From Escherichia coli (lineage in GTDB: Bacteria > Pseudomonadota > Gammaproteobacteria > Enterobacterales > Enterobacteriaceae), in the NCBI RefSeq assembly GCF_003018255.1, contig NZ_CP027440.1: a stretch of 64,000 bases of DNA; one strand, 5' to 3'. A program made the position numbers and the translations under genes. Of the stretch, positions 1,415 to 2,320 are shown in pieces; position 1 is the first letter of the stretch, and the number at the start of each line of letters is the position of its first letter. The notes beneath the pieces were generated by a model that saw only the letters and a list, made by a program, of their open reading frames with translations, made no database searches and was not told the DNA's origin.

Positions 1415-2320
1415 ATGGCTATCGAAATCAAAGTACCGGACATCGGGGCTGATGAAGTTGAAATCACCGAGATCCTGGTCAAAGTGGGCGACAAAGTTGA
1501 AGCCGAACAGTCGCTGATCACCGTAGAAGGCGACAAAGCCTCTATGGAAGTTCCGTCTCCGCAGGCGGGTATCGTTAAAGAGATCAAAGTCTCTGTTGGC
1601 GATAAAACCCAGACCGGCGCACTGATTATGATTTTCGATTCCGCCGACGGTGCAGCAGACGCTGCACCTGCTCAGGCAGAAGAGAAGAAAGAAGCCGCTC
1701 CGGCAGCAGCTCCAGCGGCTGCAGCGGCAAAAGACGTTAACGTTCCGGATATCGGCAGCGACGAAGTTGAAGTGACCGAAATCCTGGTGAAAGTTGGCGA
1801 TAAAGTTGAAGCTGAACAGTCGCTGATCACCGTAGAAGGCGATAAAGCTTCTATGGAAGTTCCGGCTCCGTTTGCTGGCACCGTGAAAGAGATCAAAGTG
1901 AACGTGGGTGACAAAGTGTCTACCGGCTCGCTGATTATGGTCTTCGAAGTCGCGGGTGAAGCAGGCGCGGCAGCTCCGGCGGCTAAACAGGAAGCGGCTC
2001 CGGCAGCGGCCTCTGCACCAGCGGCTGGCGTGAAAGACGTTAACGTTCCGGATATCGGCGGTGACGAAGTTGAAGTGACCGAAGTGATGGTGAAAGTGGG
2101 CGACAAAGTTGCCGCTGAACAGTCACTGATCACCGTAGAAGGCGATAAAGCGTCTATGGAAGTTCCGGCTCCGTTTGCAGGCGTCGTGAAGGAACTGAAA
2201 GTCAACGTTGGCGATAAAGTGAAAACTGGCTCGCTGATTATGATCTTCGAAGTTGAAGGCGCAGCGCCTGCGGCAGCTCCTGCGAAACAGGAAGCGGCAG
2301 CGCCGGCTCCGGCAGCAAAA
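1415..2320 (+). repeat. three tandem ~300-bp lipoyl-domain repeats within aceF
   Basis: near-identical protein blocks ...[49 protein letters not shown]... repeated three times. Confidence 0.9.

What the first reader, a model, noticed from the sequence alone, without database searches (positions are those of the whole stretch)
1415..2320. Triplicated lipoyl domain in aceF as a recombination-prone intragenic repeat
Three ~300-bp near-identical repeats encode the three lipoyl domains. This is well known, but such repeats are prone to deletion or expansion by recombination and to mis-assembly; the copy number here is three.
Basis: partly seen in the sequence, partly recalled or inferred. Interest (0 to 1): 0.15.

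Follow-up and report, generated by a model that had tools for sequence, protein, structure and literature searches.

The report
Three lipoyl-domain repeats in E. coli aceF
This is the textbook triple lipoyl-domain repeat at the start of the E. coli pyruvate dehydrogenase E2 gene (aceF); the copies are only 75-86% alike, and public genomes show that a whole copy is occasionally lost by recombination between them, so the finding is correct but ordinary.

Summary
Window 1415-3307 is E. coli aceF (630 aa), between aceE and lpdA. Its 5' third encodes three lipoyl domains (nt 1418-1645, 1727-1954, 2030-2257), each with a DKA lipoyl-lysine, joined by Ala/Pro linkers. Period 303-309 nt.

The copy number and coordinates are right. 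"Near-identical" is overstated: nucleotide identity is 77% (lip1/lip2), 75% (lip1/lip3) and 86% (lip2/lip3). The longest exact runs are 29, 20 and 27 bp.

The "recombination-prone and mis-assembly-prone" reading holds, but events are rare.
- Of 5,423 complete E. coli genomes carrying aceF, 8 have an in-frame two-domain allele, of four types (deletions of 309, 303, 306 and 300 bp).
- The 309- and 303-bp junctions lie in the longest identity tracts, around the lipoyl-lysine hairpin. The other two lie in the linkers.
- Four clonal isolates carry an out-of-register 192-bp deletion.
- No complete E. coli genome has four domains.
- Four-domain versions appear in draft and metagenome assemblies, some as obvious inter-species chimeras, and in two complete Salmonella chromosomes.
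- Two-domain proteins recur on hundreds of public contigs, so they look like real alleles.

Already known biology; low interest. The only mildly new point is the population frequency and junction map of natural copy-number alleles.

The parts
1..1400 (+). 3' part of aceE (PDH E1), cut by the window start
   Evidence: TIGR00759 aceE 804 bits, profile positions 423-884; annotated aceE in matching genomes
1415..3307 (+). aceF CDS, 630 aa + stop (PDH E2p)
   Evidence: ORF; NF008814 1101 bits against cutoff 722; PDB 7B9K matched over residues 1-630 of both
1418..1645 (+). lipoyl domain 1 (aa 2-77); lipoyl-lysine codon 1535-1537 (K41)
1646..1726 (+). Ala/Pro-rich linker 1
   Evidence: translation; short Ala/Pro-codon repeat families D2 and D3
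1727..1954 (+). lipoyl domain 2 (aa 105-180); lipoyl-lysine codon 1844-1846 (K144)
1955..2029 (+). Ala/Pro-rich linker 2
   Evidence: the 300- and 306-bp deletion junctions pair linker 1 with linker 2
2030..2257 (+). lipoyl domain 3 (aa 206-281); lipoyl-lysine codon 2147-2149 (K245)
   Evidence: PDB 1QJO matches aa 206-284
2258..2392 (+). Ala/Pro-rich linker 3, with short internal repeats (repeat copies lie 33 nt apart); the site of length polymorphism among strains
   Evidence: D2 copies at 2257, 2290, 2323; +42 bp in strain N64, +36 bp in NR1442
2393..2500 (+). peripheral-subunit-binding domain (aa 327-362)
   Evidence: PF02817 E3_binding, E=1.9e-16
2609..3301 (+). catalytic acetyltransferase domain (aa 399-629) with the DHRVIDG active-site motif
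   Evidence: PF00198, 269.7 bits; sequence; PDB 4N72
1505..1533 (+). 29-bp tract identical to 1814-1842 (lip1/lip2, encodes [10 protein letters not shown]); junction of the natural 309-bp deletion and of the reciprocal +309-bp duplication
1823..1876 (+). lip2 lipoyl-lysine hairpin region, pairs with 2126-2179 in lip3; junction interval of the natural 303-bp deletion alleles and of the +303-bp duplication
3632..5056 (+). lpdA (PDH E3), 474 aa
   Evidence: TIGR01350 501 bits; annotated start in K-12 corresponds to window 3632

Best explanation
The repeat is the coding sequence of the three tandem lipoyl domains of E. coli AceF, the E2p core subunit of the pyruvate dehydrogenase complex. Each unit of about 76 residues carries one lysine, in a DKA hairpin, that is lipoylated. 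The flexible Ala/Pro linkers let each domain swing between the E1, E2 and E3 active sites (established knowledge; not tested here). The triplication predates the E. coli/Salmonella split and the copies have diverged to 75-86% nucleotide identity. Only short identical tracts of 20-32 bp remain (53 bp in one contig encoding a four-domain aceF), concentrated on the conserved lipoyl-lysine hairpin. These tracts are just long enough for occasional unequal homologous exchange. That exchange removes or adds exactly one domain in frame (303 or 309 bp). Micro-homology in the linkers gives further in-frame deletions. Three is the canonical copy number in E. coli, and this window has it.
For: Gene identity and architecture. 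Operon context aceE-aceF-lpdA, and 100% identity over 2,101 bp to a complete E. coli chromosome. Repeat statistics.

Orthology by position: E. coli versus Salmonella lip1 93%, lip2 89%, lip3 86%, against 83-84% for lip2/lip3 pairs taken across the two species and 73-77% for pairs involving lip1.

Deletion alleles in 8 of 5,423 complete genomes, with mapped junctions. The 309-bp junction falls in the 29-bp lip1/lip2 tract. The 303-bp junction falls in 1823-1876. The 300- and 306-bp junctions fall in the linkers, with 11 and 2 bp of homology.

The reciprocal duplication products have the same junction tracts.

Two-domain proteins recur on many public contigs: 182 for the C2 type and 454 for the 01_3327 type, within a cluster of 305 distinct sequences.

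Literature: E2 has one to three lipoyl domains (PMC10849603). The three E. coli domains are 73% identical and act redundantly (PMC8421416). One domain suffices for activity, Guest et al. 1985 as cited in PMC5013485.
Against: Nothing contradicts the identification. The 'recombination-prone' part is weak in degree: 99.8% of complete genomes keep three domains, and no complete E. coli genome has four. Without reads I cannot prove that any single variant allele is real rather than an assembly error. A de Bruijn-graph loop through a shared k-mer would give the same in-frame products as unequal crossing-over.
Confidence: 0.97

Rival explanations
1. The copy number of three in this window is itself an assembly artefact (a collapsed or expanded repeat).
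For: Repeat-containing genes can be mis-assembled. Four-domain and chimeric versions of aceF do exist in public assemblies.
Against: The window is 100% identical over 2,101 bp to a complete chromosome, NZ_CP116067. The 630-aa length equals the solved protein 7B9K. All but about 12 of the 5,423 complete genomes carrying aceF keep three domains.
Confidence: 0.01
2. The similarity of the repeats, especially lip2 and lip3, is actively maintained by intragenic gene conversion (concerted evolution), not only by protein-level constraint on an ancient triplication.
For: At positions with the same amino acid, lip2 and lip3 use the identical codon in 80% of cases, against 50% expected from the operon's codon usage (z=5.0). 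For lip1/lip2 and lip1/lip3 the figures are 66-68% against 51% (z=2.3-2.6). Within-species lip2/lip3 identity (86% in E. coli, 88% in Salmonella) exceeds cross-species lip2/lip3 identity (83-84%). A synonymous GAT/GAC polymorphism differs between this window and K-12 at the homologous sites 1843 and 2146 together. The longest identical tracts differ between strains, from 23 to 53 bp.
Against: Positional orthology is still visible (lip2-lip2 89% is higher than lip2-lip3), and signature residues are kept by position across species. Position-specific codon preference was not modelled. Only one paired polymorphism was seen. A deep nearest-neighbour test on 225 domains was inconclusive: 88 had their nearest neighbour in the same protein.
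Confidence: 0.45
3. The four-domain aceF versions in public data are mostly assembly artefacts rather than real expansions.
For: None was found among 5,423 complete E. coli genomes. Each four-domain protein is seen on only 1-4 contigs. Several are inter-species chimeras from metagenome assemblies. In L006 and L005 the duplicated unit is an exact copy flanked by the shared tract, as a graph loop would produce.
Against: P0001 occurs in two separate NCBI isolate assemblies. Two complete Salmonella chromosomes, CP075029.1 and CP006575.1, carry four domains. Unequal crossing-over that yields deletions must also yield duplications. Zero of 5,423 only bounds the frequency below about 0.06%.
Confidence: 0.6
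4. The long antisense ORFs across the repeat (1672-2364 and 2123-3352, minus strand) encode proteins.
For: They are 230 and 409 codons long.
Against: They have no Pfam match. The first translates to low-complexity Ala/Gly/Ser/Thr sequence, as expected from reading GCN-rich linker and domain codons backwards. No matching genome annotates them.
Confidence: 0.01

Closest known systems
E. coli K-12 AceF (E2p, UniProt P06959 from memory; PDB 7B9K, 1QJO, 4N72)
   Same: Same gene, same length (630 aa), same three-lipoyl-domain + PSBD + catalytic-domain architecture. About 98% nucleotide identity over the repeat region.
   Different: Only allelic differences: 19 substitutions in 1415-2374, two of them non-synonymous (S/P in linker 2, D/E at aa 208).
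Engineered aceF genes with one, two or more lipoyl domains (Guest, Perham and co-workers; Guest et al. 1985 as cited in PMC5013485; later papers recalled from memory)
   Same: The natural 303- and 309-bp deletion alleles found here give hybrid domains of the same kind as the laboratory constructs: in-frame fusion of the N-part of one domain to the C-part of the next.
   Different: These arose naturally. They are present in complete genomes from cattle, chicken and humans, and on hundreds of public contigs.
E2p of other bacteria with one or two lipoyl domains, and reduced AceF of Serratia symbiotica (PMC5013485)
   Same: Copy number is evolutionarily labile. Among the 150 best representatives at 50% identity, 43 have one domain, 97 two, 8 three and 1 four.
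   Different: Those are fixed differences between species. Here the variation is a polymorphism within E. coli.

Membership tests
PDH complex E2p, long form (NCBIfam NF008814 / TIGR01348) | Full-length match to the equivalog model above its curated cutoff | tested here: met
   NF008814 1101.1 bits (cutoff 722); TIGR01348 1040.4 bits (cutoff 552.1)
PDH complex E2p, long form (NCBIfam NF008814 / TIGR01348) | N-terminal lipoyl domains (PF00364), each with the lipoyl-lysine in a DKA motif | tested here: met
   Three PF00364 stretches; GDKASMEVP at K41, K144 and K245; own HMM finds aa 2-77, 105-180 and 206-281
PDH complex E2p, long form (NCBIfam NF008814 / TIGR01348) | Peripheral-subunit-binding domain followed by the catalytic 2-oxoacid_dh domain with DHRxxDG | tested here: met
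   PF02817 at aa 327-362 and PF00198 at aa 399-629; [12 protein letters not shown] in the translation
PDH complex E2p, long form (NCBIfam NF008814 / TIGR01348) | Operon context aceE-aceF-lpdA | tested here: met
   annotation of matching genomes
PDH complex E2p, long form (NCBIfam NF008814 / TIGR01348) | Lysines actually lipoylated and the complex active | not testable with these tools
   Inferred from the full-length match to the solved E. coli protein 7B9K (residues 1-630 of both; residue identity not reported by the tool) and from the literature
Tandem repeat that is a substrate for unequal homologous recombination | Identical tracts at or above the minimal length for efficient RecA-dependent exchange in E. 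coli (about 20-30 bp; value from memory, Shen and Huang 1986) | tested here: inconclusive
   Longest exact runs are 29, 20 and 27 bp in the window, and 20-32 bp in three other three-domain strains. A 53-bp shared tract was seen in one contig encoding a four-domain aceF, L005. These sit at the threshold, and overall divergence is 14-25%.
Tandem repeat that is a substrate for unequal homologous recombination | Natural in-register deletion and duplication alleles with junctions inside the identity tracts | tested here: met
   309-bp deletion junction at 1505-1534; 303-bp deletion junction at 1823-1876; the reciprocal +309 and +303 bp products share the same tracts
Tandem repeat that is a substrate for unequal homologous recombination | Measured rearrangement rate and its dependence on recA or mutS | not testable with these tools
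   Only a population frequency is available: 8 of 5,423 complete genomes

The most novel reading that the evidence does not exclude
Two-lipoyl-domain aceF alleles are real and arise recurrently. Four allele types occur in complete genomes. The 303-bp deletion sits on backgrounds that differ at 0.8-1.4% of sites, which fits several separate events but could also be one old allele spread by recombination. They form by exchange at the lipoyl-lysine hairpin or in the linkers, and they persist in circulating E. coli lineages: one allele is on 454 public contigs and another on 182. If so, the third domain would be close to dispensable in nature. A side effect is that the NCBI annotation pipeline flags one intact allele as a pseudogene.
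Probability: 0.65. Interest if true: 0.25.

Novelty: already known. Interest (0 to 1): 0.12.

Why it matters
The repeat is textbook biochemistry (the swinging lipoyl domains of the PDH complex), so the finding changes nothing. Two practical points follow from the checks.

1. aceF length differences of about 300 bp in E. coli assemblies should not be dismissed automatically as errors, nor accepted as real. Two-domain alleles occur in complete genomes and recur widely. Four-domain versions are mostly confined to draft and metagenome assemblies and include clear chimeras.

2. Automatic annotation can label an intact two-domain aceF a pseudogene, as in strains 01_3327 and 03_3013.

The natural alleles would also allow a field test of the old laboratory question of why E. 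coli keeps three lipoyl domains.

Tried and rejected
1. Coverage as a copy-number test. I first used 'at least 80% of window 1400-2420 covered in one place' to exclude domain deletions. This criterion is invalid: off-diagonal alignments between the diverged repeats fill in the coverage. The two-domain genomes only surfaced when four-domain and two-domain sequences were used as queries.

2. Extra divergence in the repeat region. I tested whether the window differs from K-12 more in the repeat region than elsewhere. It does not in any clear way: 1.98% there, against 1.39-1.41% in the flanking coding sequence.

3. Deep concerted-evolution test. On 225 lipoyl domains from the 50%-identity representatives, 88 had their nearest neighbour in the same protein, and mean best identity was 0.59 within proteins against 0.60 between them. 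This is inconclusive.

4. Literature. Searches for natural aceF copy-number polymorphism or spontaneous deletions found nothing specific. The library lacks most of the 1980s-90s Guest/Perham papers, so those are cited from memory or through citing papers.

5. Antisense ORFs. Neither has a Pfam match.

6. Structure of the 192-bp deletion hybrid. I considered predicting it and did not; it is peripheral to the finding.

Full report
**What is at the coordinates**

The window opens with the 3' part of aceE (to nt 1400). It is followed by a 630-codon ORF at 1415-3307, and then by lpdA.
- The ORF matches the NCBIfam equivalog for the PDH-complex dihydrolipoyllysine-residue acetyltransferase: NF008814, 1101 bits against a cutoff of 722.
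- Pfam finds three Biotin_lipoyl stretches, an E3-binding domain (aa 327-362) and the 2-oxoacid_dh catalytic domain (aa 399-629).
- It matches full-length E. coli E2p, PDB 7B9K, over residues 1-630 of both. The innermost lipoyl domain matches PDB 1QJO.
- The DNA is 100% identical over 2,101 bp to a complete E. coli chromosome, and 5,423 of 5,426 complete E. coli genomes carry the region, annotated aceF.

So this is E. coli aceF.

**Checking the observation**

Tandem Repeats Finder reports 1436-2298, period 303, 2.8 copies, 79% matches, score 992. The repeat finder gives three 300-nt copies spaced 309 and 303 nt apart.

Every other offset stays at or below 0.45, and codon-shuffled controls stay at or below 0.435.

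In register, the three domains are aa 2-77, 105-180 and 206-281 (nt 1418-1645, 1727-1954, 2030-2257). Their lipoyl-lysines sit in identical GDKASMEVP hairpins at K41, K144 and K245.

The copy number and coordinates are therefore right. "Near-identical" is not:

| Pair | nt identity | aa identity | Longest exact run |
|---|---|---|---|
| lip1/lip2 | 77% | 79% | 29 bp |
| lip1/lip3 | 75% | 72% | 20 bp |
| lip2/lip3 | 86% | 87% | 27 bp |

(All.) A published structure paper gives 73% identity for the three domains (PMC8421416).

**Function**

This part is established knowledge, not tested here. E2 chains carry one to three lipoyl domains on flexible linkers (PMC10849603). The domains act redundantly as swinging arms between the E1, E2 and E3 active sites (PMC8421416). 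A single domain suffices for activity in engineered E. coli (Guest et al. 1985, as cited in PMC5013485).

**Testing "recombination-prone"**

My first test was flawed. I counted genomes that covered at least 80% of window 1400-2420, but the diverged repeats cross-align and fill the coverage.

The informative searches used variant sequences as queries. A protein search with AceF returned four-domain proteins of 731-735 aa as its best hits. I then used the DNA of two such contigs as queries against the complete E. coli genomes.
- No complete genome matched these queries as a single piece at high identity, so none of the 5,423 has four domains.
- The same searches surfaced eight genomes whose matching span was about 300 bp too short.
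- A two-domain query then separated 14 records from 5,409 ordinary ones by identity. Twelve of these are accounted for below; two records in the 90-95% band were not identified.

Reading the loci gave four whole-domain deletion alleles, all in frame:

| Deletion | Strains | Product | Junction |
|---|---|---|---|
| 309 bp | 01_3327, 03_3013 (identical to each other) | lip1N/lip2C hybrid | Inside the 29-bp lip1/lip2 identity tract, 1505-1534 |
| 303 bp | C2, C4, Rb-50, VTB97379v | lip2N/lip3C hybrid | Within 1823-1876, the lipoyl-lysine hairpin |
| 306 bp | DSM 103263 | lip2 removed | Linker 1 / linker 2, 2 bp of homology |
| 300 bp | FDAARGOS_1283 | lip2 removed | Linker 1 / linker 2, 11 bp of homology |

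The four 303-bp strains come from cattle, human and chicken hosts. Countries are recorded for two of them (Japan, South Africa). They differ from each other at 12-22 of 1,590 sites. That fits several independent events, or one old allele that has since recombined.

A fifth allele is an out-of-register 192-bp deletion between the two VGDKV half-domain motifs (lip2 aa 164 to lip3 aa 228). Strains 463 and 447 from Taiwan carry the identical protein, WP_418509931.1. Strains 439 and 446 show the same shortened match span.

**Are the variant alleles real?**

An exact-sequence look-up supports the two-domain alleles:
- The two-domain proteins fall in a cluster of 305 distinct sequences of about 528-530 aa.
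- The C2-type protein is on 182 public contigs, the 01_3327 type on 454, the FDAARGOS type on 22 and the VTB type on 17.

Combined with their presence in complete chromosomes, this argues that they are heritable alleles and not sporadic assembly errors.

The four-domain proteins look different.
- Each is seen on 1-4 contigs.
- Their structure is the exact reciprocal of the deletions (lip1, lip2N/lip1C, lip2, lip3; or lip1, lip2, lip3N/lip2C, lip3), with the same junction tracts.
- That structure is also what a de Bruijn-graph loop through the shared k-mer would produce.
- Several from metagenome assemblies are plainly chimeras of E. coli with another enterobacterium: P0002, P0015, P0022 and P0025.
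- On the other side, P0001 occurs in two separate isolate assemblies, and two complete Salmonella chromosomes carry four domains.

I therefore rate "mostly artefact" at about 0.6. Reads are needed to settle it.

**Evolutionary background**

Between E. coli and Salmonella, domains are most similar by position: lip1 93%, lip2 89%, lip3 86%. The triplication therefore predates that split.

lip2 and lip3 are slightly more alike within a species (86-88%) than across species (83-84%). At identical amino acids they share the same codon 80% of the time, against 50% expected from operon codon usage (z=5). One synonymous polymorphism changes together at the homologous sites 1843 and 2146 between this window and K-12. 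This is moderate evidence for occasional lip2/lip3 gene conversion.

At greater depth, copy number is labile. Among the 150 best representatives at 50% identity, 43 have one domain, 97 two, 8 three and 1 four. The literature reports domain loss in Serratia symbiotica.

**Length variation outside the domains**

Small in-frame indels are concentrated in the Ala/Pro linkers:
- +42 bp in strain N64, as two 21-bp units.
- +36 bp in NR1442.
- Spans 9 bp longer and 12 bp shorter in other genomes (not located).
- +2 aa, -4 aa and +7 aa variants among database proteins.

**Other strand**

The long antisense ORFs across the repeat have no Pfam match and translate to low-complexity sequence. I reject them as genes.

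**Verdict**

The feature is already known and of low interest. The only modestly new output is the junction map and the frequency of natural copy-number alleles: about 0.15% of complete E. coli genomes have two domains, and none has four.

Noticed in passing
window 1904-1908 / 2096-2100 (homologous sites); L001 and L015: A natural in-frame 192-bp deletion joins the second VGDKV motif of lip2 to the first VGDKV motif of lip3. It is out of register with the 303-bp repeat. The product is a 113-residue hybrid with two lipoyl-lysine hairpins. Strains 463 and 447 carry the identical protein WP_418509931.1; strains 439 and 446 show the same shortened match span. All four are from one Taiwanese project. 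Whether the hybrid folds is unknown.
   Followed up: partly
L008 1519-3099 and L020 934-2514 (strains 01_3327, 03_3013): RefSeq annotation flags the two-domain aceF as a pseudogene ('incomplete; missing N-terminus'). The 1,584-bp ORF is intact, starts at the normal ATG, and is in frame. The same 527-aa protein is on 454 public contigs.
   Followed up: partly
window 2258-2392 (linker 3) and 1646-1726 (linker 1): The Ala/Pro linkers carry short internal repeats and are the main site of small in-frame length polymorphism among strains. Located cases in linker 3 are +42 bp, +36 bp and the -4 and +7 aa protein variants; a +2 aa variant lies in linker 1. Two further genomes with spans 9 bp longer and 12 bp shorter were not located.
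   Followed up: partly
proteins P0033 (680 aa), P0030 (707 aa), P0036 (668 aa): Other aberrant AceF versions exist in public data. Two have a duplicated peripheral-subunit-binding region, and P0030 is an inter-species chimera. One has a 38-aa internal duplication inside lip2. These are probably assembly artefacts.
   Followed up: no
window 1843 and 2146: The synonymous GAT/GAC codon of the Asp next to the lipoyl-lysine differs between this window and K-12 at the homologous positions of lip2 and lip3 together. This hints at gene conversion.
   Followed up: partly
window 3599-3631: The mechanical ORF for lpdA starts at ATG 3599 (485 aa). The annotated start in matching genomes corresponds to 3632 (474 aa).
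   Followed up: yes
window 5127-6884, minus strand: A 585-aa ORF downstream of lpdA has an Asp/His-rich tract (DDDDHDHHHHDDDDYHHHDGGH) and three C-terminal repeats of a motif of about 30 residues (..ARQR.QSASPEQRQ.F.EKVQ..). I did not examine it. By position it is probably yacH (from memory).
   Followed up: no
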